Source of the DNA: Candidatus Marinacidobacterales bacterium
GTDB taxonomy: Bacteria > Acidobacteriota > Vicinamibacteria > Marinacidobacterales > DATDRI01
Length of the DNA: 64,000 nt
Direction of reading: 5' to 3'
NCBI GenBank assembly: GCA_965219415.1
Contig: OZ244742.1
Location: 1,856,001 to 1,920,000, forward strand
The notes beneath the pieces are model-generated. The model was not told the DNA's origin. It saw only the letters and a list, made by a program, of their open reading frames with translations, and searched no databases. A program made the translations under genes and the position numbers. Positions 20,431-40,219 of the stretch are shown piece by piece (the stretch's first letter is position 1; every line of letters begins with the position of its first letter).

Positions 20431-20460
20431 CACCGGAGAAGCATGACTTGGCGCGGGCTA

Positions 20461-21462
20461 TTATAGATCGAGAGCGTAGTAGGCGGCGCCGATGAGCGGA
20501 GCTCGAGGATTGAGTGCCACACAAACGCGCATGCTGTGGACCAACTCCGTGAAGCGCCCCTTGTCTCGATAGCCATCCATGAAATACCCCGTCTGCAACG
20601 CCGGAAGGATCTTAGGGGCGATTCCCCCACCGATGAAAACGCCGCCCATGGCTATGCACTTGAGGGCCAAGTTGGAGGCTTCCGCCCCGTAGATGTTAGA
20701 GAACAACTCGAGGGTCCGAACGCTCAAGGGATCCTTGTCCTCGAGGCCAGCCTTGGTGACGACGGCGCTGGGGTCATCCACTTTGAGTCGGTCCGCCATC
20801 CACTCCGGCTCGGGAGCGTAACCCGTATCCCGGAGAAAGCAATAAACGTTGAAGAATCCAGGACCGGAGAGCACGCGCTCGTAGCTGACATGGCCGCCAT
20901 GTTTCTCGCGCAGATACTTCAGCAGCTCGACCTCTCCGTCGGTTCGCGGGGCAAAATCGGCGTGCCCCCCCTCTGAGGCGATGACATGGTGGCGCTTACC
21001 ATCCCAAAACAGCATCGCTTCACCGAGGCCGGTGCCCGCCGCGACCACCGCGACGTTGCCCTTCCGTCCAGGGTCTCTGCCCCGGTTCAGTTCGTAGAGC
21101 TCATCATCCCGCAAATGCAGCATGCCATAGGCGGCTGCTTCCAGATCGTTGATGAGCCTGGTTTGAGGAACTGCCAACGTCTCCGCTATGTCTTGCTCGT
21201 CGACGTGCCATGGCAGGTTGGTGGGGTCGCTCTTTCCATCGATGACTGCACCCGCGATTCCAAAACACGCGGCCTGGATGGGTGGCGTCTCGTCTTCTCG
21301 AAGAAATTTTGCGAGGATCTCTTCGAGTGCGCCGTGCTCTTGGCTCGCGAATACCGACTCGCGAATCTCCACCAAACCCTCTACGGTGTCTTTTAAGAGG
21401 GTGACGACCGTCTTCGTCCCACCGATGTCGCCCGCAAGAATATGGCGGCGCCCCTTGGTCAT
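20461..21462 (-). CDS. glk: Glucokinase
   Basis: [44 protein letters not shown]. Confidence 0.95.
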
Positions 21463-22814: not shown

Positions 22815-25700
22815 CTACAACACGTCCTGAATGATTCCACGCAGTCTGGCCAAGTTGCGTTTCACCTCCGGGCCCAGATGCACGCGGAGAACACGGCGCC
22901 CCCGCTCCACCAGAACTTCGAAATCCCCCTGCGCTTGAAAGCGCTTCAGGATCCCGAAGGAGTATTTCTGGCCGGGGATCGCGAGGTCATCGGCGTCCTC
23001 GGAGGTAATCTGGAGAAACACCCCACTATTGGGACCGCCCTTGTGCAATTGCCCGGTGGAATGGAGAAAACGCGGCCCGTAACCGAGAGTCGTCGCAACG
23101 TTCTTCGTGGACCGTACCGAACGTCGAATGGCGTTCAACTCCTTCTGGTTCTCCTCGTTCATCTCCACGTAGGCGTTGATGGCGAAATAGTCGCCCGCCT
23201 CCAGACGGCCGAGGTGAGCCTTCAGGTATTCCCGGAGATCCTTGGACTTGGCCGATGCTGCCATGGCCTCCGTATTGCGGGAGTCGGCAAACAGGCTCAG
23301 ATCGCCATCGGCGAGAAGCGGCCTTTCCGAAAGTAGCTCGCGGGTCTCCTCGTAGGCAGTAGTCAGCCTCCGCGTCGCGACCTTGCTCACTTCCACGTCT
23401 GGTTGGTTGAAGGGGTTGATGCCCAGAACCGACCCCGCCGCGGCAGTAGCGACCTCCCAGCGGAAAAACTCCTGCCCCAAGTCCATGCTCTCCACCAGTG
23501 TAATCTTCACCACTGGGTGCCCCGCTCTCTGGAGGGCCTCGGCTGCGACGTCCTGCTCTTTCGAAGGAGCGGGAGCGAGTCGGAGATGCACGAACACTCT
23601 GTCATCTCCGTACGCTTCGGAAGGTCCTAGCGGTTCGTCGTCGATGGGAACCAACCCCTTCCCTTCCTTGCCGGTCGACTCTGCGAGCAGCTGCTCCAGC
23701 CATGCACCGAACGACTTGATTCCGGGGGACGCGATGATCGTCACCTTGTCACGCCCTCGCTTGGCGAGGGTGCCGAGGATGATGCCCAGCTCGACGCCGG
23801 GGTTGACCTCGGGCGGCACAACCGATGCACAGGACTGCACCATAATCTCTGCGTTGTCCAAAAACCTCGGAACGTCCACACCCATCACCGCAGCGGGCAC
23901 CATTCCAAAATGGGACATCACCGAGTACCGGCCGCCGATGGTGGGCACACCGTGAGCGATGTGCCGAAAGTGATTCGCTTTGGCCAGACGGTGAAGCTTG
24001 GTCCCCGGGTCGGTGACGGCGATGAAGTGCGAGCCAGCTTTTTCCGGCCCAACCTCCTGCTCGACCTTGTCGAAGAAATACTGCTTGAAAACGTTGGGCT
24101 CGGTCGTGCTTCCGGATTTCGACGACACGATGAAAAGCGTTTTCGCTAGATTCACCCTCTTCTCGAACGCCCTGACCTGTGCCGGTACCGTCGAATCGAG
24201 AACGAGCAGTTCAGGAAAACCATCCACAACGCCAAAGCTCCGCCGCATCACCTCGGGCCCCAGACTGGATCCGCCCATTCCCAACAGGAGGATGTGCTCG
24301 AACCCTCCCGCCTTAACATCCTCCGCGATGGCCTGAATGTGCTCGGGATGATCGAGTTGGCCACTCACGATGTGCAACCAGCCGAGCCATTGATCTTCAT
24401 CCGCGCCGGACCAAAGCGATGTGTCCCCCCGCCAGAGCCGTCTGACCTTGCCATTGGTTCGCCAGTCGTCGAGAGCTTTCTGAACATCGCTCTCTGCTTC
24501 CCCGAGAAAGTAGGACTGCTTGGCCAGCTCGCCTGCCAATAGGGATCGTCGTTTCCGTTCCACGGCGGCGAGAAGCTTGTCGAAAGCGTTCGAGAATTTT
24601 TTCACCCCGTCGGCAAGCAGATGGTCGGTTACATCCTCCATCGAGATTCCGACCTCACCGAGGGTGGCCATCGTTTCCTCCGCTTGCTCGATGTTCTCCG
24701 CCCAGTTCTCAGTTAGGCTCGGCCGTGCGCGGCCCTTGGATCGAAAGGACAAATAGGTCTCGGTGGGAACTGTGTTCACGGTATCTTCACCGATCAGTTC
24801 ATCGACGTAAAGAGTCTTGGGATACTTCGGGTTCTTGGTGCTGGTGCTTGCCCACAAGAGCCTCTGTGTCTTGGCCCCTTGATCGGCCAGCGACTTCCAT
24901 TTCTTTGCGGAGTGGAGCTCCCGGTAGAGCGCATAGGCGACCCTAGCGTTGGCGATGGCCACTTTCCCAACCAAGCTCTTCAACTTCTGACGCCTCTCCG
25001 CTTCCCTCGTGGCGTCGAGAGCCTCACAAACCTTCTGGTCGACGAGCGAATCGATACGACTCACAAAGAAGCTAGCAACGCTCGACACACGAGAGAGGTC
25101 GCCTCCCGCCGAAGCGAAAATCTCGAGACCATCCATATACGCGTTGGCCACCGCCTCATAGGACTCGACCGCGAAAAGCAGTGTGACGTTGATATTGATG
25201 CCCTCTCCGATGAGCTGCTTGATCGCGGGCACGCCCTCGGGGGTCGCGGGAACCTTGATCATTACGTTCGGCCGGCCGATGGACTTGTGCAGACGGCGGG
25301 CTTCCTCGAGCGTACCTCCGGTGTCGTTGGCGAGGTAGGGCGACACCTCCATGCTCACGAAACCGTCGCGGCCTGAGGTCTGCTCGTAAACGCCGGCCAG
25401 AACGTCGGCGGCTAGTTGAATGTCCTCGATGGCCAAACCTTCGTAAATGTTCTTGGCGTCCCCGGTATCTTGCGAGACCAGCTTCTTAGTCGCGGCGTCG
25501 TAGTCGGTGCTGCCGGCCAGGGCCTTTTCGAAGATGGAGGGATTCGATGTCACGCCCAGCAGACCGTCTCCCTCTACCATCTCCTTGAGCTCGCCGGATG
25601 TAATGAGGCCGCGGCGAATATTGTCGTACCAGATGCTCTGGCCGAATTTCTGGACGTCTTGGATTGGGTTGGACACGGCGCTAGCCTCGAATCTTTCCAT
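22815..25700 (-). CDS. Bifunctional transaldolase / phosphoglucose isomerase
   Basis: Transaldolase motifs GVTSNPSIF, MIKVPAT, LWASTSTK, followed by PGI-like GMGGSSLG, SSKSGST, GGRYS, EQLLAESTGK, FNQPDVE. Start approximate. Confidence 0.93.
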   Translation of the reverse strand: MERFEASAVSNPIQDVQKFGQSIWYDNIRRGLITSGELKEMVEGDGLLGVTSNPSIFEKALAGSTDYDAATKKLVSQDTGDAKNIYEGLAIEDIQLAADVLAGVYEQTSGRDGFVSMEVSPYLANDTGGTLEEARRLHKSIGRPNVMIKVPATPEGVPAIKQLIGEGININVTLLFAVESYEAVANAYMDGLEIFASAGGDLSRVSSVASFFVSRIDSLVDQKVCEALDATREAERRQKLKSLVGKVAIANARVAYALYRELHSAKKWKSLADQGAKTQRLLWASTSTKNPKYPKTLYVDELIGEDTVNTVPTETYLSFRSKGRARPSLTENWAENIEQAEETMATLGEVGISMEDVTDHLLADGVKKFSNAFDKLLAAVERKRRSLLAGELAKQSYFLGEAESDVQKALDDWRTNGKVRRLWRGDTSLWSGADEDQWLGWLHIVSGQLDHPEHIQAIAEDVKAGGFEHILLLGMGGSSLGPEVMRRSFGVVDGFPELLVLDSTVPAQVRAFEKRVNLAKTLFIVSSKSGSTTEPNVFKQYFFDKVEQEVGPEKAGSHFIAVTDPGTKLHRLAKANHFRHIAHGVPTIGGRYSVMSHFGMVPAAVMGVDVPRFLDNAEIMVQSCASVVPPEVNPGVELGIILGTLAKRGRDKVTIIASPGIKSFGAWLEQLLAESTGKEGKGLVPIDDEPLGPSEAYGDDRVFVHLRLAPAPSKEQDVAAEALQRAGHPVVKITLVESMDLGQEFFRWEVATAAAGSVLGINPFNQPDVEVSKVATRRLTTAYEETRELLSERPLLADGDLSLFADSRNTEAMAASAKSKDLREYLKAHLGRLEAGDYFAINAYVEMNEENQKELNAIRRSVRSTKNVATTLGYGPRFLHSTGQLHKGGPNSGVFLQITSEDADDLAIPGQKYSFGILKRFQAQGDFEVLVERGRRVLRVHLGPEVKRNLARLRGIIQDVL

Positions 25701-25819
25701 TGAGAAGTGTAAACCGCTAGGTTCCCTGTAGATGTAACCCATTCGGAGAAACCAAGCAAGAGCTTACTTAAGCGGGCGGGCGCCCGCTTGGCGCCCGCGG
25801 CTCAAGCTGGGCACTCGCG

Positions 25820-26315
25820 TCTTACGCAGCTCATCGGACGCAGGACATCAGGCTCTGGCAGCGCAGGTCCTCGGCTACGTCGACGTCAAGCAGGCCGTCG
25901 TCGACGATCTCGTGTACGCGATGAGCGATCCGTCCGTGGACGTCCGGAACAACGCGATGCGGACGTTATGGGTGTTCACCGCGGCAACGCCAAGTGCGGC
26001 GCGCCCTGTCCCACGTGTTCCTTATCAACCGTTCATCATGTTGCTCCACTCTCCGGATTTTACGGATCGGAACAAAGCGTCACTAGCACTTCGAAGGGTC
26101 GGGACCCGCAGCTTCTCAGGAGGCTGCGTAACGAGGCCATGGCGCCGCTCGTTGAGATGGCCCGCTGGAAGAGCGAGGGGCATGCAATGGCTGCCTTCAT
26201 CATCCTCGGGCGGATCGCTGGCTACTCAGACGAGGCCGCAGAGGCCGCCTGGCATCGGGGTGAAAGGGAAGAGGTCATCGGCGCAGCGCTCAGTCGACAT
26301 GGGCCGGCCGTCTGA
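25820..26315 (+). pseudogene. HEAT-repeat protein fragment, frameshifted; probable former integron cassette
   Basis: 'LVYAMSDPSVDVRNNAMR' in ORF 25912 continues as 'RDPQLLRRLRNEAMAPLVEMARWK' in another frame. No clear 5' end. Confidence 0.6.
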
Positions 26316-26330
26316 CTGCGCTGTTATACC

Positions 26331-28730
<2,400 letters not shown>

Positions 28731-29200
28731 CGTGTCAAATCTGGGTGCTATTGATATGCGCTTTATTGCTTTCATTGTTCCGGGGAGTACCGACTACCCA
28801 TGACGATGCCCTGGAGAGTCTGAAGTCAACGGAAGCGAGGCGCCTCGCGGCGTTGAATGCCCGAGATGTGGATACGATTGTGGAAATTGAAGGTGGTGCG
28901 GTCGGGTTCGGTCGGGCATCCACAGTTCCGCGAAGAAATGAACCCGCGTCCTTCAAAGCAAGAATCGAAAGCTGGTTCAGCACCATGGAGAACCTTGAGA
29001 TCGAACTACTCGACGAAGACTATCGGGTCGTTGGCAACACCGGTTTGGTGGTCGGAACGCTTGTGCGGAGGGAGAGGCCCATCGGAGGTAAGCCCTTAAC
29101 TCGACGACTACGGTATTCAGCGACTTATGTCCTGCAAGGGAAACAGTGGCACATGGTTCAGTACCATCGTTCACCGATTCCGGCAGAAGCAACCTCTTGA
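28731..29200 (+). CDS. NTF2-like (DUF4440-type) secreted protein; integron-cassette gene, start uncertain
   Basis: Hydrophobic N-terminus, 'ALNARDVD', 'GNTGLVVG', 'RYSATYV..QWHMVQYHRS'. Followed by an attC site. Confidence 0.72.
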
Positions 29201-29244
29201 GATGGATCTCCGCGAGTATGATTTGCATGGAGAGTGACGAACCA

Positions 29245-29343
29245 GCATAACAATTCGCTGCGGCTGACGAGTGGCTCGAGTTGCTTGGAAGAATAAGACG
29301 TTCTTATTGGTGCGCCACTCGCAGCTGAGCTCGACTGTTAGGC
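29245..29343 (+). other. Integron attC recombination site (99 bp)
   Basis: GCATAAC (29245) ... GTTAGGC (29337). Arms gctg(a)cgagtggc / gccactcgcagc with an unpaired base, and central hairpin aataaga-cgt-tcttatt. Confidence 0.85.
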
Positions 29344-29356
29344 GACTCTCGGGACG

Positions 29357-29490
29357 GTCCGGAGACATAGGTAACAAAACAGTCCGGGGACATGGGTGAC
29401 AGTAGAGAGGTACCGGGAGGTGCCTCGTGGGATGGAGGTCAACGTCACCTATGGGCGAGCGAGTGCGTTTCATAGTGGATGCTCCAGAGC
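29357..29490 (+). mobile_element. IS481-like left-end stub
   Basis: Direct repeats gtccggagacataggtaaca / gtccggggacatgggtgaca, then GTG 29427 'GWRSTSPMGERVRFIVD', resembling IS481-family transposase N-termini. Confidence 0.65.
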
Positions 29491-29507
29491 AGGGCGGCAG
29501 CCTTAAG

Positions 29508-29681
29508 AGCCTTACGGACCAAGGAGGCATCAACCGAAATCGTCGAATAGGATATGGTGCGCAGGGCGAACGAGCCAACAGGGGCAGGCACTAAGAGGCA
29601 CGAAATCCTACCCATCCGAGAAATTGGATGGCTCTCGATAGCGCCCATTTGGGGTCTGTTGGTAGCAGGGCGGTAGCAGCC
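29508..29681. repeat. att-like repeat copy 3: nqrF 3'-end duplicate plus 126-bp arm
   Basis: tcaaccgaaatcgtcgaaTaggatat at 29530-29555. 29556-29681 matches 31882-32007 with about 3 differences. Confidence 0.9.
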
Positions 29682-29756
29682 CCCAGGCTCTACATTACGA
29701 TATACCTCCGCTGCGACCTGTGTGCCACCGCAGGGAACGCGCATCCTCCCGCCTCT

Positions 29757-30007
29757 GATCGATCTCGGTCGCGCTAGGCTGACTCGAAGCCGTAAGTGAC
29801 GGCGAAAACCCGCATCTCCACTGTAGATTCTCTCACTCCGACACTGAGGTACGGTACCGTAGAAGACGGCATCTTGCGGGCTTTATCGGGACCGTAGATC
29901 GATCCACATTTCGCCGAGCCGATAGGAACGACGGACCATTTGCCGGATTCTCCATCAGGTGCACGGACCTAGCGCGACCCAAATCAGTGCGTCGTGACTA
30001 GATGCCC
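29757..30007 (+). ncRNA. Candidate structured non-coding element, copy A (most complete)
   Basis: Perfect 12-bp closing stem 29767-29778 / 29968-29979 plus internal stems. Homologous to 32009-32198 and 33695-33924. Confidence 0.55.
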
Positions 30008-30107
30008 GCGTTGCCGCACAGTAAGCCACTAGCCCTTTTGACTTTTCAGCCTGTGCGGGACTATTCTCAGATTGATCGGCCAGCCCAAAGCAGTTGGAGG
30101 CTTTCCC

Positions 30108-30270
30108 ATGGCCAACGAACATCGTCAGCAGGTGGAAAGGCTGGTCCGGGCTGCGCTTGAACACCCTCCCTCCGAGAGAAGCCTTTTTCTGGAAGGCGCG
30201 TGCTTGGAGGACGCGTCCCTACGAAAGGAAGTCGAAGCCATCCTCGCTTCTCGGGAGCCTCCTGCGAGTT
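30108..30270 (+). pseudogene. N-terminal stub of a Ser/Thr protein kinase
   Basis: RBS ggagg, then MANEHRQQVERLVRAALEHPPSERSLFLEGAC..DASLRKEVEAILA, a typical pre-kinase leader. No kinase domain follows. Confidence 0.65.
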
Positions 30271-30364
30271 CTCCCCAGGAGCCCCACAGCACCCGCCGGA
30301 TTTCATCGACGATAATGTGCCCGCACGAAGTGCGGAGTTTGTCTGTTTCCGAAAGGAGGATCAG

Positions 30365-31519
30365 ATGACGAAACTCAAGAAATGGATCGCGAGTGCGACC
30401 CTTGCGTGCCTCTGGGCCTGCGGCAGTCCGGAGCAATCGACCATAGACCAATTCTTCCGTGCCGCCCGGACCAACGACCCTACAACGCTTGCTTCCATGT
30501 CGGCCGTCGGCCCTCCCGTGGAGGTAGAGTCGTGGAAGGTGGTCGAGGTTAGCTCCCGATCAACGGAGCCTTTCGCGTTGCCGGAGCTCCTCGACCGGTT
30601 TGAGGCCGCCACGAAGGAACGAGACGCCGCGGTGGAGGCAGGCCAAAAGTATGCCAGCGACCAGCCGGATGCTCTCGAACGGATCATCCCAAAGCTGCGA
30701 GAGGGTTCAGATTACAAGTTCCGTGGAAAGATGGGTGAGATTCAAGAGGAGTGGTTGAGGCTGGTTGAGGAGCGCAGAGAGAAGGAAGGCACATTTCAAG
30801 AGCTCAAACGGGCCGTACGTAGTGAAACCGGACTCGCCACCAAGTCGGTGATGCGCCAGGTGAACGTCGAGAACCTAGACGGAGACGTCGCGGTGACGGA
30901 AATGCTGCTCCGCCTCAAACCCCGGGATGGCGACGAGCTGCCCTATAGGGTTGTGCTTCGAAAGTACAAACTCTCTGAGCCGGAGAGCGATCGCATCGAG
31001 CCCGCGCGTTGGGTCATCCTCGACATCGAGGGGACAACCCCGGAGGCTCGGGCCGCGGCATCCGCGCCTGCCAAGGCGAGTGAACCATCCTCAGAATCGG
31101 CAGACGCCACCGAGCCCTCGAAGGTTGCCGACAACCAAGGCGCCGCCGAGAGCAAGCAGCCTGCCCGGAACGAGCCAACGTACCGGCCTCGAGAGTTACG
31201 CGGCCTCGCTAGAGTTCAGATTCTCACCCCCGAGACAAAGGTCGAAGGCGACGAGGTGATCACCACCATCCGGGTGCGCAATGTGTCGAAGGACTGGATA
31301 ACGCGGTTTATGGTGACGGAGCACTGGTACGACGAGCAGGGCAACGCGGTGAGAAGTGGTTCGCGAACGCACCAAAAGCAGTTCATGCCGGGCGAGGTCA
31401 TAGAGATGGAGCTGCGGACGCGCAAGAACCCGAAGTTCTACCAGAACCAGTTCGAGTTCTCGCACGCCAACGGTGACGTCAAGGCCTTTCCCGTCGGGAG
31501 CTTCCCGAAGGACACTTAA
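30365..31519 (+). CDS. Hypothetical lipoprotein (coiled-coil region, linker, C-terminal beta domain)
   Basis: RBS aggagga, lipobox LWAC, long ORF with host-like codon usage. Confidence 0.78.
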   Translation: MTKLKKWIASATLACLWACGSPEQSTIDQFFRAARTNDPTTLASMSAVGPPVEVESWKVVEVSSRSTEPFALPELLDRFEAATKERDAAVEAGQKYASDQPDALERIIPKLREGSDYKFRGKMGEIQEEWLRLVEERREKEGTFQELKRAVRSETGLATKSVMRQVNVENLDGDVAVTEMLLRLKPRDGDELPYRVVLRKYKLSEPESDRIEPARWVILDIEGTTPEARAAASAPAKASEPSSESADATEPSKVADNQGAAESKQPARNEPTYRPRELRGLARVQILTPETKVEGDEVITTIRVRNVSKDWITRFMVTEHWYDEQGNAVRSGSRTHQKQFMPGEVIEMELRTRKNPKFYQNQFEFSHANGDVKAFPVGSFPKDT

Positions 31520-31826
31520 GAGTAACGCGACTACCCGGTCGAGCGCGGCTGGGGCGCATAACTCTTTGCGTGCAGGACAACTGATCCGCATTGGGTCGGT
31601 TGACACCCGCATCCACGCCCCGAGTACAGATTCGCCTCGCGCTAGGCACGCCGCTTTCGCCGTAGTGGGACGCGGCCATGTCGCCGCGATAGATTGATCC
31701 TCCGCCTGCTAGGTCGAGCCAAGTGATGAGGAATCAACGAAAGGCCCCTTGGGTCCCATGTGATTGGCGAAAAGCGACGCTGCGATTGTTTCACGATCGC
31801 GAGCGCCGCTCGCACGTCAACGTAGA

Positions 31827-32007
31827 AGCAGAAAGCCTTACGGACCGAGAAGTTATCAACCGAAATCGTCGAAGAGGATATAGTGCGCAGGGCGAACTAG
31901 CCGACAGGGGCAGGCACTAAGAGGCACGAAATCCTACCCATCCGAGAAATTGGATGGCTCTCGATAGCGCCCATTTGGGGTCTGTTGGTAGCAGGGCGGT
32001 AGCAGCC
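31827..32007. repeat. att-like repeat copy 2: nqrF 3'-end duplicate plus 126-bp arm
   Basis: 31827-31881 aligns without gaps to 34321-34375. The arm ends in GGTAGCAgggcGGTAGCA. Confidence 0.9.
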
Positions 32008-32008
32008 T

Positions 32009-32198
32009 CTGTGGATTCCCTCTCACAGACACCGAGGATCCGGCACTGTAGAAGTCGGCATTTTGCGGGCTTTGTCCGGGCCCGTCAGAATCGATTAGCA
32101 TTGGCTGATCTGATAGGAACAACGGGGCGTTTCCCGTATTCACCATCGGGTGGACGGACCTAGCGGGAGCCAAATGAGTGCGTGGCGTCTAGATGCCC
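32009..32198 (+). ncRNA. Candidate structured non-coding element, copy B (5'-truncated)
   Basis: Aligns to ~29821-30007; shares cggcat.ttgcgggc, gataggaac and acggacctagcg blocks. Confidence 0.5.
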
Positions 32199-32245
32199 TA
32201 GATGGGGGTTTGTCGTGGACAGATGGCCTCGTATTTATCAACCCG

Positions 32246-33625
32246 TCAGACGCCGCTGCGATAGGCGAAATCGCTCCGTGAATGCACCTGACCGTCTCTG
32301 ATGATCAAATCGATCTCTCGAATGTCGCGGATGTCCTTCAACGGATCGGCGTTCAGAATGAGCAGATCGGCCCACTTCCCCGCCTCCACGGTTCCGAGCT
32401 TGTCCTCCACGCCGATGGCCTTGGCTCCGATACGGGTTGCGGCGACCAGAGCCTCCATGGGGCTCAATCCACATTCGACGAATAACTGCACCTCCCAGGG
32501 AGTGTTGTAACCTTGAAAGTTGTAACCCACCCGCCCACCGCCGTCGGTTCCGACCGCGAGCTTCACACCGGCCTGGTGCATCTTGGTGACGTTCTCTTTA
32601 AAAACCGGGATCTTCTCAGCCACCCACTGGTAGATGTCCTCGCCCGCGATTTGCCGAAAACGCGCGTTCTCTTCCGCCATGAAGTCGGCACGGCGCATCC
32701 GCTCGAGTAGAAAAGTGGGCACGCTGCCCACGAGGATGGGGTCGTCGAATCCGTCCGGCCGTTCATCGTAACGAAGGAAGGCCTCGAACAGGCTGACGGT
32801 GGGAATGATGATAATGTCATTATCGACCATCTCTTGCAGGATGGGATCCCCTTCCGGGATAGGGTCTTCCAATCCGTGCACGATGCCCCGCGGTCGGATA
32901 GAAACCGCCTTCCTGTACTCCTCGAGATTGATGGCGTGCACATAGATTGGAACGTCTTCCGCTTCGGCCACTTCCACGATCGCCTCGAGCATATCGTCGG
33001 GCATCACCGGGACGGTACCGGAACGGTCTGCCATTCCGTCTTCGATGACGACCTTGAAGCCGTCCGTCCCCTTAGCGACGTAATCGAGGGCCCGCTGCCG
33101 GGCCGCCTCGGCATCTTTAAGGGTCCTTCCGAGGTGGTTTCCCCAGCCTCCTTCTGGAATGAAAGCGCGTCCCATGGCGTAGATCCTCGGCGAGATCAGC
33201 CGACCTTCCCTTTGCGCCGCACGCCTCGCCCAAATCCATTCCTCGTCGGAAGAAACGTTCAGTACGGTGGTGACACCGTTATAGAGCAGGGCGTTGCCGT
33301 TGTGTTCGATGATCTGTTCTCTCTCTTCGGGCGAGATCTGGTAGGCGATCGGGGCATCCAAGTGGATGTGAGCGTCGATGAGGCCGGGGACCACGAACTT
33401 GCCGGTAGCGTCGATGACCGTCGCTCCTCGCGGCGGCTCGAGATCGGTCCCTATCGCCTCGATCTGATTTTTGCGAATCCAGATGTTCGCACCCGTTTGC
33501 GGAGCGGCGCCGGTCCCGTCGATGAGCGTTGCATTCTGTATGAAGACGCCCTCTTGAGGCGGCTCGGCACTGCATCCCGCGATTACTAGCAATCCGCCCA
33601 GAAGAATCGTGCTGACACTTTTCAT
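32246..33625 (-). CDS. Metal-dependent amidohydrolase lipoprotein
   Basis: Lipobox IAGC, PGLIDAHIH, VGTD, GTVEAGKWADLLIL. Confidence 0.92.
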   Translation of the reverse strand: MKSVSTILLGGLLVIAGCSAEPPQEGVFIQNATLIDGTGAAPQTGANIWIRKNQIEAIGTDLEPPRGATVIDATGKFVVPGLIDAHIHLDAPIAYQISPEEREQIIEHNGNALLYNGVTTVLNVSSDEEWIWARRAAQREGRLISPRIYAMGRAFIPEGGWGNHLGRTLKDAEAARQRALDYVAKGTDGFKVVIEDGMADRSGTVPVMPDDMLEAIVEVAEAEDVPIYVHAINLEEYRKAVSIRPRGIVHGLEDPIPEGDPILQEMVDNDIIIIPTVSLFEAFLRYDERPDGFDDPILVGSVPTFLLERMRRADFMAEENARFRQIAGEDIYQWVAEKIPVFKENVTKMHQAGVKLAVGTDGGGRVGYNFQGYNTPWEVQLFVECGLSPMEALVAATRIGAKAIGVEDKLGTVEAGKWADLLILNADPLKDIRDIREIDLIIRDGQVHSRSDFAYRSGV

Positions 33626-33694
33626 CGCTGACTCCTTTCTCGCGGTCAGATTCTAACCCGCTTGTCCACCGGACACGCTCATCTCACCGCCAAG

Positions 33695-33924
33695 GATCGA
33701 TCTAGGCCCTGCTGGGCTGATCCGAAGCCGTAGCAAACGGGGAAATCCCTCATCCTCGCTATCCATTCTCTCACGCGGACAGTCGGAGTGCGGCACGGTG
33801 GGAGTCGGCATCTTGCGGGCCTTATCGGGACCGTAGAATCGGTCAACATTTCACCGATCTAGTGGAACGACGGTCCATTTCCTCCCGTCGCTAACCGTAG
33901 CCTTCTCCTAGGACAGGCGGAATC
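33695..33924 (+). ncRNA. Candidate structured non-coding element, copy C
   Basis: Aligns to 29757-29985. Stems atcggt/accgat and cgacgg/ccgtcg are perfect in this copy. Confidence 0.5.
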
Positions 33925-33927
33925 GGT

Positions 33928-34449
33928 TTGTCGCGGCGAGATGAGCGCGTTCGCTCAGCAAAATCAAGCTGGCTCTTCTTTCCCGAACTCGGGGTGAGCC
34001 CCGACCAAAGGGCGGTGGATCGGGTCACAGCAAGGATACAAAAAGCCTTTCGCCGAACGGCTAGACGGGCACAACTGCCGGGCCATTTCAGCGTTCATAG
34101 TCTGAGACACACCTACGCAAGCCTGTTACTCCAACAGGGGGAATCTACCGTCTACGTCCAGCGGCAACTGGGCCACTCCAGCATTCGGATAACGGTAGAC
34201 GTTTATGGCCGCTGGCTACCAATGGGCAACCGCGATGCTGTGGATCGTCTCGCAGGGATTAACGAATTTGTAGCGCGAGCGGCAAGTGGTAGCAAAATGG
34301 TAGCAAACGCGGCGAGAAAGAGCAGAAAGCCTTACGGACCAAGAAGAAATCAACCGAAATCGTCGAAAAGGATATTCTCCGGTTCCACTCCCAGGCCGTC
34401 GAGCATTTGCATGCAAGCCTTGAGCATGAGCGGTGGACCACAGAGGTAG
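33928..34449 (+). pseudogene. Tyrosine recombinase/integrase, C-terminal fragment
   Basis: HSLRHTYAS (H-x-x-R), LGH and the catalytic Tyr region 'ITVDVY'. The N-terminal and first-Arg regions are absent. The frame runs across the att site antisense into nqrF. Confidence 0.88.
34288..34375. repeat. att-like repeat copy 1 (functional nqrF end) with paired GGTAGCA arm-type repeats
   Basis: GGTAGCAaaatGGTAGCA at 34288-34305; core at 34321-34375. Confidence 0.85.
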
Positions 34450-35576
34450 TACTCGATGTCCTCGGGCGCGGGATGATCCTTCAGGTAGTTGTCGTAAACA
34501 ACCTGGTGGATGAAGCCGGTGTAGCCGGTCCAGTTGTCTTGGGGTAGCGGCTCGGAAAGGGCGAGATACCACTTGAAGTTGTCGAACTCTTTTTGAATCT
34601 TGTCGAAGTCCTCGATGTAGAACGCCTCGCGCAGACTCCGCGCCCCATACCAAAAGGTGATTTTACGCTCAGCGTCGATTCGGTAGAACTGATCGAAAAT
34701 GTGTGAGCGCATCGGCGCCATTCCGGCACCGCCGCCGATGAAGAGCATCTCCGCTTCGGTCTCCTTGGCGTAGAATTCGCCGAAGGGGCCGGAAATGGTC
34801 ACCTCGTCTCCTGGCTTCAAACCGAAGATGTAGGACGACATCTTGCCCGGCGGCGTACCTTCGGGAGCTCGCGGTGGCGGAGAGGCGACACGCACGTTGA
34901 GCAAAATGATCCCCTTCTCCTCCGGGTAGTTGGCCATCGAGAACGCACGAGTGACCGGCTCGTCCACGGTGGAGACGTAGCGCCACATGTTGAACTTGTC
35001 CCAATCCTCTCGGTATTCCTCTTCGACGTCGAAGTCCTTGTAGTTGACGACATGCGGCGGGGCCTCGATCTGTATGTATCCGCCGGCGCGGAACGGAACC
35101 GATTCCCCCGGGGGAAGCTCCAAGACCAGCTCCTTGATGAACGTAGCCACGTTGTGGTTCGAGCGAACCTTGCACGTCCACCTGCGAACATCGAAGACCT
35201 CGGCCAACACTTCGATCTTCATGTCCTGCTTGACCTTCACCTGGCACGACAGGCGGACGCCGTCGCGAGCTTCCCCCCGGCTGATATGGTTCTCCTCCAC
35301 CGGGACCATAGCGCCGCCGCCTTCTTTGACGGTGACCGTGCAAACACCGCACGTTCCCTTTCCTCCGCAGGCCGAGGGGATAAAGATCTTGTTCGCGGCT
35401 AACGTGCCCAACAATGTTCCCCCCGCCGGCGTGGTCAGCACCTTGTCCGGATCGTCGTTGACGGTGATGGCCACGTCCCCGGTGGCGACAAGCTCTCGCC
35501 GGGCGACCATCAACAAGCCCACCAGCGTCACGATGACGAAGGTGAACATGAAGACCCCGAGTGCGATAGTGACCAT
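34350..35576 (-). CDS. nqrF: Na+-translocating NADH:quinone reductase subunit F
   Basis: [10 protein letters not shown] 2Fe-2S motif, [23 protein letters not shown], terminal DDFG. Confidence 0.97.
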
Positions 35577-35589
35577 AGTGCGTCGTTTC

Positions 35590-36207
35590 CTAGAGCTGGA
35601 TGCCTCCGAAAGCCATGAATCCGATGGCCATCAGACCGGTGATGATGAACGTGATCCCCAAGCCGCGGAGGCCGGCGGGGATATTGCTGTAGCGAAGTCG
35701 CTCTCGAATGCCGGCCAGGGCGATGATGGCGAGCGCCCAGCCCACACCCGAGCCAAACCCGAAGACCACGCTCTCTCCGAACGCGTAGTTGCGCTCGACC
35801 ATAAAGAGTGACGCCCCCAAAATCGCGCAGTTTACGGCGATCAAGGGCAGAAACACGCCCAACGCCGCGTGCAGCGTGGGTAGGAAGCGATCGAGCGTCA
35901 TCTCCACGATCTGCACCATCGCCGCGATCGTGCCGATGTAGGTGAGAAAACCGAGAAAAGACAAATCGTAGGACGCCAGCTCCGGGCTGACCCAAGCCAG
36001 CGCGCCTTCCTTCAGTAGGTACGTGTAGATCAGAAAGTTCATGGGAACGGTGATGGTCAGAACGAAGACGACGGCGCTACCAAGACCGATCGCGGTGTCC
36101 ACCTTTCTCGACACCGCGAGAAAAGAGCACATACCCAAGAAAAAGGCGAGGGCCATGTTCTCGACGAAGATGCTCTTGATGGCTAGATTCAAATAGTGTT
36201 CGAACAT
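35590..36207 (-). CDS. nqrE: Na+-NQR subunit E
   Basis: [22 protein letters not shown]; operon position. Confidence 0.96.
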
Positions 36208-36208
36208 G

Positions 36209-36835
36209 TCAATCCGCCTCCACTTGGTCCGGCTTCCAGGTTCTCAAGATCCAGATGAAGAGTCCAATTATGAAGAACGCGGCAGGTGACAACAGCATGA
36301 GAGCGTTGGGATTGTACCAACCGCCCTCGGTCACCAAAGGCATCAAGGTGATCCCGAACAGGGAGCCGGATCCAAACAACTCCCTCAAGAACGCAGTTAG
36401 CATGAGAATGAGCGAATACCCTAGGGCATTGCCGATCCCGTCCAACACGCTCTGCATCGGCGGGTTCTGCATCGCATAAGCCTCGGCGCGGCCCATGATG
36501 ATGCAGTTGGTGATGATGAGACCGACAAACACCGATAGCTGCTTCGAGATTTCGTAGACGTAGGCCTTGAGAATCTGATCGGTGACGATCACCAAGGACG
36601 CGATGATGGTCAGCTGCACGATGATCCGAATATTTGTTGGAATCTGATTTCGGAGCAGGCTGACGAATAGGTTGGACAGCGCCAGTACCGCGAGGACCGC
36701 CACGCTCATGACCAGAGCGGTGTCCATTTTCGTAGTCACCGCGAGTGCCGAGCAGATTCCCAACACTTGATAAGCGATTGGGTTGTTGTTGAAAAGCGGA
36801 TCGGCGAGCGCGTCTCGCGCCTTGCTAGTCATCAA
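36209..36835 (-). CDS. nqrD: Na+-NQR subunit D
   Basis: [25 protein letters not shown]. Confidence 0.96.
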
Positions 36836-37617
36836 CTGACTCCTTCAGTTTTCCTCAATCGGTCGAGGTAAGGGCCGAAGCCATTTTCCGCAAGCCAGAA
36901 CTGAATCATGTTGGTCACGCCGCGGCTGGTGATGGTGGCACCCGAGAGACCGTCTACCCGATAGGGATCCTCGGCGGGCGGTCCGGCACGCCCCTTGACA
37001 ACGGTAACGACGGGTTTGTCTTCGTCGTCGAAGGCCAAGCGTCCGTCCCAACGAGCCTTCCAAATCGGATTATCGACCTCGCCGCCCAGACCCGGGGTCT
37101 CTTTGTGCTCGTAATAAGTGATGCCGCGGATGGTGTTGAGATCGGCACCATCCAGCGCCAGAAAACCGTAAAGGGTTCCCCAAAGGCCGTAGCCCTCGAT
37201 GGGCAGAATCAGAGTCTGAATCCCCCCGCTGTCATCTTGGAGCTGGTACACCAAGGCGTTGTCGGCGAGGCGCTGAACCCGCGAGCGATTGTCGGGGGCG
37301 GCTCGACTGGTACTGGGATCCATCGCTGCCTTCCAGTAATCGAAAGTCGCCGGATCGATTCCTTCTGTCTCTTCTCCCGTCTCGAGATCGATGACCACCT
37401 GCCGGACAGGCGTGAAGCGCTCCTCGATCTCTTGGCGGCTCAACTTTTCCTCGTCCTTCGCCAGCCCGGCGGCGATCAGCACATTCCGCTGCTTGTCCAG
37501 CGCCGCGTTGACATCTTGCCGGTCTTTCAGAGAGACCGCGGCCCATGAAACGAAAACCGCGCAGACAACCGACACCACGGCCGCGAACCACAGGTTGTAT
37601 TGGACGCTATGCTGCAT
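36832..37617 (-). CDS. nqrC: Na+-NQR subunit C
   Basis: [19 protein letters not shown]-attachment [10 protein letters not shown]. Confidence 0.96.
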
Positions 37618-38827
37618 AGCGAGCCTTCCTACGTTTTATATTAGCCTGCACAACGAAATGGTCAATCACCGGAGCAAAGACGTTCATTAGCAGGATCGCC
37701 AGCATCATCCCTTCCGGATAGGCCGGATTGACAACCCGGATCAGCACCGCTAACACCCCGATTAAGAAACCGTAGATGTAGGCGCCACGGTTGGAAGTGG
37801 GAGCAGACACCGGGTCGGTCGCCATGTAAACCATGCCGAAGGCCCAGCCGCCCAGCACGAAGTGCCACCAGAAAGGCACGTCGAAGAAGGGATTTGTCGA
37901 AGAACCAACGCCGTTGAGGACGAGCGTCATGGCGATCGTTCCGAGGGCGACGCTCAGCATAATGCGCCACGAACCGATTCCGGTGATTACGAGAAGGAGC
38001 GCGCCAGCCAAACATGCAAGAGCGGACGTCTCTCCCATCGACCCCGGGACGAACCCTATAAAGGCATCCCACCAACCAACCCCCCCGGCAATGGCAGCTT
38101 GTCCACCTTCCACGGCGTTCGCCAGCCAGGTCGCGCCGCTTACCCCGTCGGCGGCCGTCACCGCGGCAATCCATACCTGATTTCCCGTGATCTCGGCAGG
38201 GTAGGCAAAGAACAGAAACGCGCGGGCAGTGAGGGCCGGGTTCAAGATGTTGAAACCCGTCCCCCCGAAGACCTCTTTACCAATAACCACACCAAAGGTG
38301 ATGCCGAGGGCGACCTGCCAGAGAGGGATATTGGGCGGAAGAATGAGTGGGAACAAGAACCCGGTGACCAAGAAACCCTCGTTCACCTCATGCTTCCGGA
38401 CCACAGCAAAGACGACCTCCCAGATGCCGCCAACCGCGAACGTGACGATGAACACCGGAAGGAAATAAAGCGCGCCGTGAACGATGCATGCCCAGACGTT
38501 TCCGGGATCGAGGCCTAACCCCAGCGCTCCCATCGCCTCGGTCTGCCACGTGGTTAGCGGAGCGGCCCCTTTCGAGATCGCGAGGTTCGCCTGGTAACCG
38601 GTGTTGTACAACGCCATGTACAGGCAGCCGGCCAGCGAGATCACGACCGTCATCATCATGCGCTTGAGATCGAGGCCGTCGCGCGCATGCGCGGCTCCCT
38701 TTGTGACCTCGCCCGGCGTGAACAAGAAGGTATCGTTCGCCTCCCAGAGCGGATAGAGCTTTTCGAGCTTTCCGCCTTTTTCGAAAAGCTTGGCCTGCTT
38801 GTCGAGTAGGTTGCGTAGGAGTTTCAT
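37607..38827 (-). CDS. nqrB: Na+-NQR subunit B
   Basis: [17 protein letters not shown]-attachment DGVSGAT, MATDPVS. Confidence 0.96.
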
Positions 38828-38839
38828 GAGCAGGTTTGG

Positions 38840-40219
38840 CTAGCCTTCTTTCTCGACCGTGGTGAGGACGTCACGGAGAAACGGTCCGTAGTCGTTTTTC
38901 CCCGGGTCCACGAAAGTGCACAGTCCGAGATCCTCCTCGGCCAGCTCCAGGCACCCAAGTTCCTCGGCACGCACGACGTCGCGCATCAGGAGCGAACGCA
39001 GCATCGCCGTCGGCATGATGTCCATCGGCATCACCTTCTCATACATACCTATCGGAACGATGGCGCGGACCGATCCGTTGGTGGAGGTGGTGAACGCGAA
39101 CTTCTTCCCCGGGATGAGCTTGGACACAAAGGTATTAATGATAGAGAACTTGTCGAACCCAGGCCCCAACCAACCGAGAAACTCGCGCTCCCGCCCCTCG
39201 CGAAGAACGGTCACTTGTCGATCATACCGTCCGAGATAACCCAATATCTCTCCGGAAGCCTCGCGTCCCGAAAAGACAGAGCCTGAGATGACACGGTTCT
39301 CTCCTTCCCTTAGCTCGCCGTCAAGGAGATCCTCCGTCGACGCGCCCACCCTCGTCCGCACCAACCTAGGCTGCCGCACCGCCGGACCAGCGATTGCGAT
39401 CACACGCTCCACATCGAGCTTGCCGGTCTGAAAGAGCTTTCCGATCGCCACCACATCCTGATAGCCAGCGTGCCAGACCGTCTTGTTCCGATCGACGGGA
39501 TCCAAACGGTGGATGTGAAGGCCCACCGTGCCGGCGGGATGAGGGCCCTGGAACTCCTCGTGACGAAACGGATCATCTCGAGGTATTGGGACCCGGCTTC
39601 CTGGCGATGTGCAAACGAAGACCGGTCCGTCAGTCAACTTGGAGAGTGCGTTGAGACCCTGCTCGAAATCGGAATGTCGTCCTTCGAGCACAACGTCTAC
39701 CGAAGGCGCCAGGGGATGCGTGTCTATCGCGGCGACGAAAACCGAGTGCGGCTTGTCGTTGGGATGGGCGATGTGGCCGAAGGGGCGCCCGCGCAACGCA
39801 GTCCACATCCCGGACTCGATGAGGAGCCCAGCGACATCGTCCCGCGAAAGACCGTCCGGGTGCTTCCCGGTGAAGGACGAGAACGAGGCTTCTTCGGGCC
39901 CTCCACCCCGGCCCCCCCTTTCGTTCTGGCTCAGCTCGATGACGACAGATTGAAGAGCTCGGCGCTCGCCCCGATGAATGGCCGCCACCTTGCCCGCACC
40001 CGGCGACGTGTAGCCCACCCCGGGCGTCTTTTTGTCCTCGAAAAGGAGCTGGCCGTGGCGAACGTCGTCCCCTTCCGCGACGAGCATTGTGGGGCGCAAG
40101 CCCACGTTGTCACTGGCCAGGAGCGCGACCTTCCCTGGGGTGCCACCATCCTGAACGGCTTGCTCCGGCTCCCCCGAAATAGGCAGCCGAAGGCCCTTTC
40201 TGATCTTGTGTAGTCCCAT
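38840..40219 (-). CDS. nqrA: Na+-NQR subunit A
   Basis: [41 protein letters not shown]. Confidence 0.96.

What the first reader, a model, noticed from the sequence alone, without database searches (positions are those of the whole stretch)
29757..33924. Three diverged copies of a ~230-nt multi-stem non-coding element inside the nqrF-integrated islands
Seen: copies A (29757-30007), B (32009-32198) and C (33695-33924) share blocks such as cggcat.ttgcgggc and gaac.acgg but are clearly diverged and contain indels. Pairing is retained while the sequence changes. A has a perfect 12-bp closing stem ggtcgcgctagg/cctagcgcgacc, plus gccgt/acggc, cccgca/tgcggg and tatcgg/ccgata. At one equivalent position A has actg/cggt, B ccg/cgg and C gtcg/cggc. 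At another, B has acggg/cccgt and C cgacgg/ccgtcg. C also has a perfect atcggt/accgat stem where A and B have wobble versions. Several mismatches are G-T on the + strand, which points to a + strand RNA. Inference: a structured ncRNA (or folded ssDNA site) that is a core part of this mobile-element family, for example in immunity, integrase control or mobilisation. I do not recognise it as a known family. Caveat: a minus-strand frame gives GPDKARKMP in all copies with third-position changes, so a decayed ORF is not excluded.
Basis: partly seen in the sequence, partly recalled or inferred. Interest (0 to 1): 0.9.

Follow-up and report, generated by a model that had tools for sequence, protein, structure and literature searches.

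The report
Palindromic non-coding repeat of integrase islands
The repeated 230-nt "RNA-like" element is real, but it looks like a roughly 285-bp palindromic piece of non-coding mobile DNA that travels with integrase genes, left behind in decayed genomic islands, rather than a structured RNA gene.

Summary
The three copies exist. There are in fact five in the window: A 29733-30017, B 32005-32210, C 33670-33953, and an inverted half-copy G at 31670-31802. A sixth copy (D) lies elsewhere in the genome.

They sit in a tandem array of decayed integrative islands at the 3' end of nqrF. A 55-nt att core is repeated three times there, and a same-genus relative has the empty site.

The element is a discrete, non-coding, imperfectly palindromic module of about 285 bp. 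It has terminal inverted repeats of 18-32 nt (longer by eye) and a 47-nt central palindrome.

In two metagenomic relatives the element lies directly upstream of, and co-oriented with, an intact Xer-like tyrosine integrase gene. Copy C abuts a truncated integrase of another type.

The RNA reading is not supported:
- No Rfam hit.
- Pairing in the proposed stems is no better than shuffled controls (122 of 500).
- Fold energies are alike on both strands.
- G-T and A-C mismatches are balanced (32 against 28).

The ORF reading is weak too. Frames are broken, only a 13-codon block shows any periodicity, and no protein homologue was found.

Best reading: a DNA-level cis-acting or foldback module of integrase-borne mobile elements. 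Its function is not shown. Interest is moderate to low.

The parts
29733..30017 (+). Copy A, complete element (about 285 bp)
   Evidence: nhmmer E 4.3e-83 over model 2-275. Inverted arms 29761-29778 / 29968-29985 are 89% complementary. The left half against the reverse complement of the right half gives z 6.5.
29850..29896 (.). Central imperfect palindrome of copy A: 22-nt arms with 3 nt between. This is the most conserved block of the family.
   Evidence: the repeat finder I2, 73% complementary. Alignment columns 113-156 have mean pairwise identity 0.83, against 0.57-0.74 for the other blocks apart from the inner left repeat at 0.81.
32005..32210 (+). Copy B, 5'-truncated at model position 80 and fused directly to the end of the 174-nt D1 repeat
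   Evidence: nhmmer model 80-275, E 1.9e-54; alignment.
33670..33953 (+). Copy C, complete element. It runs into the start of the open frame of the truncated integrase.
   Evidence: nhmmer model 1-275, E 1.2e-74. Terminal inverted arms 33670-33701 / 33922-33953, 32 nt, 75% complementary.
31670..31802 (-). Copy G, inverted partial copy (3' half, model 149-274), 25 nt from att core 2
   Evidence: nhmmer E 5.6e-14. BLAST to the G001 copy: 78.8% over 104 nt.
29501..29555 (.). att core copy 1 (last 26 nt of nqrF plus 29 nt downstream)
   Evidence: the repeat finder D2, 80% to the reference copy; alignment.
31827..31881 (.). att core copy 2
   Evidence: the repeat finder D2, reference copy.
34321..34375 (.). 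att core copy 3, the one joined to the intact nqrF
   Evidence: the repeat finder D2, 93%. It matches the uninterrupted nqrF end of G001.
29556..29681 (.). 126-nt arm next to core 1 (part of repeat D1), ending in GGTAGCAGGGCGGTAGCAGC
   Evidence: D1: 174 nt, 95% identical to 31834-32007. GGTAGCA occurs 9 times in the window against 3.17 expected, and 6 of the 9 are pairs beside the three cores.
31882..32007 (.). 126-nt arm next to core 2 (repeat D1)
33928..34320 (+). 5'-truncated tyrosine integrase gene. Only the C-terminal part of the catalytic domain is left. It is read towards core 3.
   Evidence: Pfam PF00589, E 4.3e-12, profile positions 90-165 of 172 only. 38% identical over 85 aa to the full integrase of the G001 island.
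34350..35576 (-). nqrF, the target gene of the island array
   Evidence: Pfam Fer2, FAD_binding_6 and NAD_binding_1. 74-88% identical at the DNA level in five relatives. I named the ORFs beyond nqrF as nqrE-A from their translations; no family search was run on them.

Best explanation
The copies belong to a discrete, non-coding, imperfectly palindromic DNA module of about 285 bp. It has inverted repeats at its ends and a 47-nt palindrome at its centre.

It is a component of small mobile islands that move with tyrosine integrases. In intact relatives it lies immediately upstream of an integrase gene, on the same strand.

In this window the copies are orphan relics. Several islands integrated one after another into the 3' end of nqrF (tandem accretion), then lost or truncated their integrases, leaving cargo genes separated by copies and fragments of the module.

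I infer that the module acts at the DNA level, as a cis-acting site bound or folded for a recombinase: either a MITE-like foldback unit or an att/cassette-type site. The apparent multi-stem RNA would then be the shadow of its inverted repeats.

Shown: the copies, their ends, their palindromy, their contexts, and the lack of RNA or coding signal.

Inferred: that a recombinase recognises it, and which one.
For: 1. Discrete unit. A, C, D and F share both ends in four unrelated contexts. By contrast, the truncation points of the partial copies all differ: model 80 in B, 149 in G, about 175 in L012, about 184 in L015, and left-end scraps of 61 and 36 nt in G002.

2. Palindromy. Arms in A are 18 nt at 89%, in C 32 nt at 75%, in F 24 nt at 71%; E has 18 of 20. 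The profile's left end hits the reverse strand of right ends in 7 copies with E-values of 0.0017 to 0.26 (A, C, E, F and L022 at 0.058 or better; L016 0.074; L018 0.26). The central palindrome has 22-nt arms. Whole-element dyad symmetry gives z 6.5 for A and 3.3 for D, but only 0.5-2.3 for the other four.

3. Link to integrases.
- E and L018 have a 98% identical Xer-like integrase (119 of 122 aa), starting about 70 nt (L018) to about 90 nt (E) after the module, on the same strand.
- C abuts a truncated integrase.
- F has an integrase 1.4 kb downstream in an island at tRNA-Asn that is bounded by a 47-nt repeat.
- That makes 4 of the 9 distinct contexts (A, B, C, D, E, F, L012, L015, L018).

4. 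Mosaic history. Between E and L018 the integrase and its 35-nt leader are 97-98% alike. The first ~165 nt of the module are less alike (83% by BLAST over 170 nt; roughly 85-90% by my eye), and its 3' part cannot be aligned.

5. Accretion context. Three att cores, an empty site in G001 and a scar in G002. The pattern matches the CIME/accretion scheme in PMC5704250 (passages read).

6. Patchy, narrow spread. 3 of 61 relatives, 4 of 55 genomes of the order, 2 hits among genome contigs and 7 among metagenome contigs.

7. No RNA signal or strand bias and no coding signal.
Against: - No target-site duplication was seen at any complete copy (read by eye from the alignments), and no autonomous partner with the same ends is in this genome. 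It is therefore not a textbook MITE.
- No copy was caught in two states (excised, inverted, or empty site). The only relevant joint in public contigs, 29974/30010 on opposite strands in 2 runs with one contig each, could be an assembly artefact of the palindrome.
- No close homologue of the E/L018 integrase is in this genome (best 33%).
- More distant homologues of that integrase in 15 of 401 Acidobacteriota genomes carry no detectable copy of the module.
- An alternative local fold with the central hairpin does somewhat better than shuffles (82.4% against 80.5%, 20 of 500; covariation 10 of 500). It contains one two-sided change (U-A / A-U / U-G at columns 129-143). An RNA or single-strand role for the centre is therefore not excluded.
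- Only 8 distinct sequences were available, so all these tests have low power.
Confidence: 0.5

Rival explanations
1. A structured RNA made from the + strand: either a 5' leader that controls the integrase gene downstream of it, or a small RNA of the island. The copies without an integrase would be relics.
For: - It is co-oriented with, and directly upstream of, integrase genes in C, E and L018.
- The central hairpin is paired in 95.8% of cells, with one two-sided change and two one-sided G-U-compatible changes.
- In the three local helices, G-T cells (23) far outnumber A-C cells (3). This is biased, because the fold was predicted on the + strand.
- The centre is the most conserved block, at 0.83 identity.
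Against: - No Rfam match at E up to 1.
- RNAalifold gives -18.67 kcal/mol with covariation term +1.42.
- MFE z-scores average about -1.7 on the + strand and -1.9 on the - strand over 6 copies.
- Consensus energies are -23.3 (+) against -20.2 (-) on the core, and -45.0 (+) against -51.3 (-) on the full length.
- No promoter-like or terminator-like site lies inside the copies.
- The one RNA run laid covers only 30359-30699, not the element. That run held contigs only, so this is not evidence of absence.
Confidence: 0.2
2. An origin of transfer or a single-strand initiation site that lets integrase-only islands be mobilised by a conjugative element. It would work as folded single-stranded DNA.
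For: - The module is shared by islands with unrelated integrases and different integration sites: nqrF here, tRNA-Asn in G001.
- It is palindromic and non-coding.
- Islands that carry only an integrase and a borrowed oriT are a known kind (PMC5704250, abstract and passages seen).
Against: - No relaxase or conjugation gene was seen in the loci examined (ORF lists). Most of those ORFs were not run against family libraries.
- No further copy lies next to a conjugation module in this genome.
- No similarity to any of 72,556 plasmid records.
Confidence: 0.1
3. An invertible promoter switch (inverton): inverted repeats flank about 190 bp, and the recombinase next door flips the segment.
For: - Inverted repeats flank the body of the module.
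- A small tyrosine recombinase is adjacent in E and L018. It gives weak matches to tyrosine-type DNA invertase models, 32 bits against a cut-off of 222.
- One inverted partial copy (G) lies in the window.
Against: - The two distinct sequence variants seen next to that integrase (E and L018, in five records: L006, L010, L013, L017, L018) both have the same orientation relative to the gene.
- No promoter-like site was found in the copies.
- Many copies lie far from any recombinase.
- Nothing here needs a phase-variable gene.
Confidence: 0.07
4. A decayed protein-coding gene on the minus strand, the GPDKARKMP frame.
For: - A 13-codon block (PDKARKMPTSTVP) has 7 of 12 variable columns at third positions and pN/pS 0.25.
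- Copies A and D keep one frame from this block to a shared stop.
- D has an 87-aa ORF.
Against: - A 1-nt indel separates the two conserved stretches in 6 of 8 copies. Stops interrupt the frame in B, C, E, F, L012 and L015.
- The next 25 codons show no periodicity (12/15/15 variable columns) and pN/pS 0.74, no better than another frame at 0.64.
- A + strand frame scores as well on the 13-codon block (0.20).
- There is no Pfam family, and no protein in the 5.8-billion collection shares three 5-residue words with the D ORF. Only lengths of 47-153 aa were searched.
Confidence: 0.05

Closest known systems
Miniature inverted-repeat transposable elements (MITEs) and foldback elements of bacteria, such as Correia elements and Tn3-derived TIMEs (named from memory; no call)
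   Same: Small (100-400 bp) and non-coding, with terminal inverted repeats. Several diverged copies per genome, patchy among relatives, clustered with other mobile DNA, and able to fold into a long hairpin.
   Different: No target-site duplication was seen, and no parent IS with the same ends was found. There are only 5 copies or fragments in 8 Mb. The most conserved part is the centre rather than the ends. It is associated with tyrosine integrases, not DDE transposases.
Integron attC sites and chromosomal cassette arrays (recalled knowledge; mentioned in passages of PMC9345347)
   Same: Imperfect palindromes that separate single cargo genes in an array next to a tyrosine recombinase gene. The copies are all in one orientation (A, B, C). 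In A the termini carry AAC...GTT.
   Different: Twice the size of the largest attC (57-141 nt, recalled). The sequence is conserved rather than only the structure. The RYYYAAC/GTTRRRY boxes are not met. The neighbouring recombinase is not an integron integrase (64 bits against a cut-off of 265). It is read in the same direction as the sites.
Tandem accretion of integrative elements and CIMEs at the 3' end of a gene (PMC5704250, passages read)
   Same: This describes the context, not the module. [quoted passage not shown]
   Different: The scheme does not predict a second, palindromic repeat family inside the islands.
Recombinase genes with their site just upstream, such as TnpI with the internal resolution site of Tn4430, or fimS with FimB/FimE (recalled; no call)
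   Same: A cis-acting site of 100-300 bp with inverted repeats immediately upstream of a small tyrosine recombinase gene.
   Different: No Tn3-family transposase or fimbrial operon is present. No sequence similarity was tested. The copies are scattered without the recombinase.

Membership tests
Any Rfam family | Covariance-model match at or near the gathering score | tested here: not met
   cmscan of 24000-40000 on both strands at E up to 1 gives only ALIL (RF01497) at 27680-27796, outside the element.
Structured RNA (generic) | Base pairs kept through compensatory change beyond controls | tested here: not met
Alternative fold: 20 of 500 and 10 of 500, within the range the tool reports for unconstrained alignments. 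Only 8 sequences, so power is low.
Structured RNA (generic) | One strand folds better than the other and better than shuffles | tested here: not met
   z from -0.4 to -3.1 on the + strand and -0.7 to -3.0 on the - strand over 6 copies. Consensus energies are similar on both strands.
Structured RNA (generic) | A discrete transcript | not testable with these tools
   All four runs laid were contigs. The one RNA run covers only 30359-30699.
Protein-coding gene | One open frame kept across copies | tested here: not met
   Frameshift between the two conserved stretches in 6 of 8 copies, plus stops.
Protein-coding gene | Third-position bias and low pN/pS | tested here: inconclusive
   13-codon block: 7 of 12 variable columns at third positions, pN/pS 0.25. 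Next 25 codons: 12/15/15 and 0.74.
Protein-coding gene | Homologous proteins | tested here: not met
   No Pfam hit. No candidate in the search for homologous proteins at lengths of 47-153 aa. Longer and shorter lengths were not searched.
MITE | Terminal inverted repeats, small size, no ORF | tested here: met
MITE | Target-site duplication at the ends | tested here: not met
   No direct repeat flanks A, C, D or F in the alignments (read by eye). The exact ends are uncertain by a few bases.
MITE | An autonomous element with the same ends | tested here: not met
   nhmmer of the whole genome finds only the five copies plus weak scraps. Other genomes were not searched for separated ends.
Integron attC / cassette array | Integron integrase (IntI) nearby | tested here: not met
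   The L018 integrase scores 64.4 bits on TIGR02249 against a cut-off of 265, and is below cut-off for every NCBIfam model. The window's fragment scores 44 bits.
Integron attC / cassette array | Imperfect palindrome of 57-141 nt with RYYYAAC ... GTTRRRY (sizes and boxes recalled) | tested here: not met
   It is a palindrome, but about 285 nt long. The right ends read GTTGCCG (A), GTTCGCT (C) and GTTTTGG (F). These do not fit GTTRRRY.
Accretion array of integrative elements (context) | [quoted passage not shown] | tested here: met
   Three cores. G001 has nqrF with an uninterrupted downstream region that matches 34307-34379. A truncated integrase is read towards core 3.
Inverton | Both orientations present in a population | tested here: inconclusive
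   Both integrase-linked variants (E and L018; five records in all: L006, L010, L013, L017, L018) share one orientation. No raw reads were available.

The most novel reading that the evidence does not exclude
The module is a giant attC-like recombination site, a 285-nt hairpin formed by one DNA strand. It would be used by a Xer-like (non-IntI) tyrosine recombinase to capture and shuffle single-gene cassettes.

That would make it an integron-like gene-capture system of independent origin in sponge-associated Acidobacteriota. The window would hold a recombinase-less array (A - cargo - B - cargo - C) parked in an nqrF island.
Probability: 0.1. Interest if true: 0.8.

Novelty: new variant of a known kind. 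Interest (0 to 1): 0.35.

Why it matters
If the DNA-level reading is right, this is one more family of small palindromic passengers of genomic islands. It is useful for annotating mobile DNA in marine and sponge Acidobacteriota, and for not mistaking inverted repeats for RNA genes.

It would matter more if the adjacent Xer-like integrase turns out to recombine these sites. A tyrosine recombinase working on long palindromic sites between cargo genes would be a second, independent solution to gene-cassette capture.

The window is also a clean example of serial integration and decay at a protein-gene att site (nqrF). I searched no papers on nqrF as an integration target.

Tried and rejected
- **Piece of nqrF or of the att core carried by the island?** No. 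BLASTN and TBLASTX of the element against nqrF give nothing below E 0.01. Local alignment of five att cores against seven copies gives z of 2.1 or less. The 126-nt arm next to cores 1 and 2 has a 14-aa resemblance to NqrF (KW..ALS...GW.G) at E 4-6, which I treat as chance.

- **N-terminal half of the truncated integrase?** No. E and L018 have a complete integrase after a complete element.

- **GGTAGCCTG as a crossover point (L015 against L018)?** Rejected. L018 continues to a canonical right end further on, so L015 is simply truncated there and fused to the C-terminal stretch of a gene. I took that gene for a TIR-like domain gene by eye only; it was not searched.

- **A repeated 13-nt dyad (CCGT...A..CGG) as operator?** Not robust. 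There are 0-2 matches per copy. CCGTRG occurs 2-3 times on the + strand in A, C and F, and twice in D, B... in fact in A, C and F only, against about 0.16 expected per copy. I leave this as a hint.

- **Relatives of the E/L018 integrase elsewhere in the phylum** (15 of 401 genomes; six copies in G233, with a conserved 140-nt block after the cargo). They have no sequence similarity to the element, so they gave no extra homologues.

- **Collections with no match.** Viral contigs, plasmids and phages gave nothing.

- **Empty-site comparison for copy D.** It failed because only the tRNA-Ser gene is shared with G001.

- **Public runs.** Only contigs were served.
  - No cover of the element in the RNA run.
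  - Joints 31879/34501 and 31268/34958 have sides of 21-22 letters, so I do not trust them.
  - The 29974/30010 opposite-strand joint is unexplained.

Full report
**What is there.** The region lies downstream of an nqr operon on the minus strand. I named nqrE-A from the ORF translations. nqrF (35576-34350) is confirmed by Pfam (Fer2, FAD_binding_6, NAD_binding_1).

A 55-nt segment made of the last 26 nt of nqrF plus 29 nt downstream occurs three times: 29501-29555, 31827-31881 and 34321-34375 (family D2). Only the third is joined to nqrF.

In the same-genus genome G001, nqrF is followed by an uninterrupted downstream region that matches window 34307-34379, so the site is empty there. In G002 a 36-nt scrap of the repeated element abuts the core (E 7.6e-4).

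Left of core 3 lies a tyrosine integrase gene fragment (33928-34320, + strand). It keeps only profile positions 90-165 of PF00589. It is 38% identical over 85 residues to a full integrase of an island in G001.

Cores 1 and 2 each carry a 126-nt arm, 95% identical between them, that ends in two GGTAGCA repeats. A third pair of GGTAGCA repeats lies just left of core 3. GGTAGCA occurs 9 times in the window against 3.17 expected.

This is the pattern described for tandem accretion of integrative elements and their decay into integrase-less remnants (PMC5704250; passages read).

**The copies.** A, B and C are real. A profile built from five copies finds five significant places in the 8.05-Mb genome:
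- A (E 4e-83).
- C (E 1e-74).
- B (E 2e-54; model 80-275, so 5'-truncated where it meets the 126-nt arm).
- D on another contig (E 3e-45), between an IS256-like transposase gene (named from its translation only; no family search) and tRNA-Ser.
- G, an inverted partial copy at window 31670-31802 (E 5.6e-14; model 149-274).

Outside this genome the element is rare:
- 3 of 61 relatives, counting G000.
- 4 of 55 genomes of the order, one of them a 43-nt scrap.
- Only G000 and G020 give long matches among 401 genomes of the class, with the L018 copy as query. That query missed G001.
- An exact-pattern scan of the conserved centre finds 2 stretches in 185,579 species genomes and 7 in the metagenome collection.
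- Nothing in viral contigs, plasmids or phages.

After removing duplicates there are eight sequences that could be aligned (A, B, C, D, E, F, L012, L015), plus L018. Copies within the window are 69-75% identical to each other over the core, and B is closest to the copy from another family (E, 87%). They are therefore old or separately acquired lineages, not recent duplications.

**Anatomy.** The complete copies (A, C, D, F) share both ends in four unrelated contexts. The partial copies are cut at points that all differ.

The ends are inverted repeats:
- In C, 32-nt arms at 33670-33701 and 33922-33953, 75% complementary.
- In A, 18-nt arms, 89% complementary.
- In F, 24-nt arms, 71% complementary.
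- In E, 18 of 20.

By eye the repeats run on to the outermost bases, roughly CGCGCTCATC on the left and GATGAGCGCG on the right. The left end of the profile also hits the reverse strand of right ends in seven copies (E 0.0017 to 0.26).

At the centre lies a second palindrome with 22-nt arms and 3 nt between (29850-29896 in A). It is the most conserved block, at 0.83 mean pairwise identity. The inner left repeat is at 0.81 and the other blocks at 0.57-0.74.

In A the whole left half resembles the reverse complement of the right half (z 6.5). In D this is weaker (3.3), and in C, E, F and L018 weaker still (0.5-2.3). The element is thus an imperfect palindrome of about 285 bp. The "multi-stem" picture follows from that.

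**Link to integrases.** In E (four records of one sequence) and in L018, a complete element is followed by a complete or contig-cut gene on the same strand. The gap is about 70 nt in L018 and about 90 nt in E. The gene encodes a 280-aa tyrosine recombinase (PF00589, E 2.7e-26).

The two recombinases are 98% identical over 122 residues. They are generic Xer-like proteins, below the cut-off of every NCBIfam model. They are not integron integrases (64 bits against 265), and they are unrelated by BLAST to the window's fragment.

C abuts the truncated integrase of the other type. F lies 1.4 kb upstream of an integrase, inside a 6-kb island bounded by a 47-nt repeat of tRNA-Asn. So 4 of 9 distinct contexts have an integrase gene downstream on the same strand, and two unrelated integrase types and two integration sites are involved.

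Between E and L018, the integrase with its 35-nt leader is 97-98% alike. The first 165 nt of the element are less alike (83% by BLAST; roughly 85-90% by eye), and its 3' part cannot be aligned. The element and the gene therefore have separate histories. This genome has no close homologue of that integrase (best 33%), so the window's copies are orphans.

**Is it an RNA?**
- Rfam gives nothing in 24000-40000 except the ALIL frameshift element of an IS3 copy.
- RNAalifold on eight sequences gives -18.67 kcal/mol, with the covariation term positive.
- An alternative with the central hairpin and two local helices does better: 82.4% against 80.5%, 20 of 500; covariation 10 of 500. That is within what the tool's own trials give for unconstrained alignments.
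- That alternative contains one real two-sided change at columns 129-143: U-G in four copies, U-A in two, A-U in one, A-G in one.
- MFE z-scores over six complete copies run from -0.4 to -3.1 on the + strand and -0.7 to -3.0 on the - strand.
- Consensus folds of the two strands are similar in energy.
- No promoter-like or terminator-like site lies in the copies.
- The one RNA run that could be laid held contigs only. It covers part of the neighbouring lipoprotein gene (30359-30699), not the element.

The RNA reading is therefore unsupported but not excluded for the central hairpin.

**Is it a dead gene?** The GPDKARKMP frame is present in all copies. Over 13 codons it has 7 of 12 variable columns at third positions and pN/pS 0.25, though a + strand frame scores 0.20 on the same block. 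The following 25 codons have no periodicity (12/15/15) and pN/pS 0.74.

A 1-nt indel puts the two stretches in different frames in 6 of 8 copies, and stops interrupt most copies. The 87-aa ORF of copy D has no Pfam family and no relative in the 5.8-billion protein collection at lengths of 47-153 aa. I rate a decayed ORF as unlikely.

**What it most likely is.** It is a discrete palindromic non-coding module with fixed ends. It is patchy among relatives, embedded in decayed islands, mosaic with respect to the integrase gene beside it, and lacks RNA or coding signal. All this points to a DNA-level cis-acting piece of mobile elements.

It resembles a MITE or foldback element. It lacks the target-site duplication and the parent IS, and its centre is better kept than its ends.

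It also resembles a recombinase site placed upstream of its recombinase gene. In the array A - cargo - B - cargo - C - integrase it recalls integron attC sites, but it fails their size, their boxes and their integrase.

I cannot tell from sequence whether the adjacent Xer-like recombinase acts on it, whether it is an oriT-type site, or whether the centre works as a hairpin in RNA or single-stranded DNA.

**Verdict.** The RNA interpretation is not supported. The safest description is a new palindromic repeat family of integrase islands, with unknown and testable function.

Noticed in passing
window 27680-27796 (and ORFs 27402-27722, 27779-28459; 19601-20524 on the minus strand): An ALIL frameshift pseudoknot (RF01497, 85 bits) marks an IS3-family element just left of the island array. 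Its second ORF is cut short at 226 aa. A longer, nearly identical copy of that ORF lies at 19601-20524.
   Followed up: partly
window 29661-29678, 31987-32004, 34288-34305: Pairs of GGTAGCA direct repeats, 4 nt apart, sit beside all three att cores. Two pairs are 105 nt to the right of their core and one is 16 nt to the left. They look like arm-type integrase binding sites of the nqrF islands.
   Followed up: partly
L002 785-1281 (G000 contig C3, between a HerA-like ATPase gene and tRNA-Ser): A repeat of about 500 nt gives 15, 46 and 50 matches in G001, G002 and G003 at 76-97% identity. These counts include the tRNA match and fragments. It is unrelated to the element studied and looks like an abundant non-autonomous mobile element of this family of bacteria.
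   Followed up: no
L036, L047, L050, L052, L053, L054 (genome G233): Six copies of a small mobile unit: about 200 nt of conserved upstream sequence, a Xer-like integrase 44-46% identical to the L018 one, variable cargo of 0.4-1.3 kb, and a conserved 140-nt non-coding end block.
   Followed up: partly
L026 1442-1477 (G002, next to nqrF) and L022 1486-1546 (G002 contig C23): Isolated scraps of the element's left inverted repeat. One abuts the nqrF att core directly, suggesting that an island was once there and was deleted.
   Followed up: partly
window 30365-31519: A 384-aa predicted lipoprotein with no Pfam or NCBIfam family. A 341-nt contig of a sponge metatranscriptome run matches 30359-30699 with one difference.
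   Followed up: no
L011 7791-7875: An 85-nt stretch next to mglB in G001 matches 8 places on contig C3 of G000 at 89.8%. It is a short dispersed repeat or a multi-copy RNA gene, and was not identified.
   Followed up: no
window 29974/30010: Contigs of two public runs (one contig each) join these places on opposite strands. This is either an assembly artefact of the palindrome or a different arrangement in other strains.
   Followed up: no
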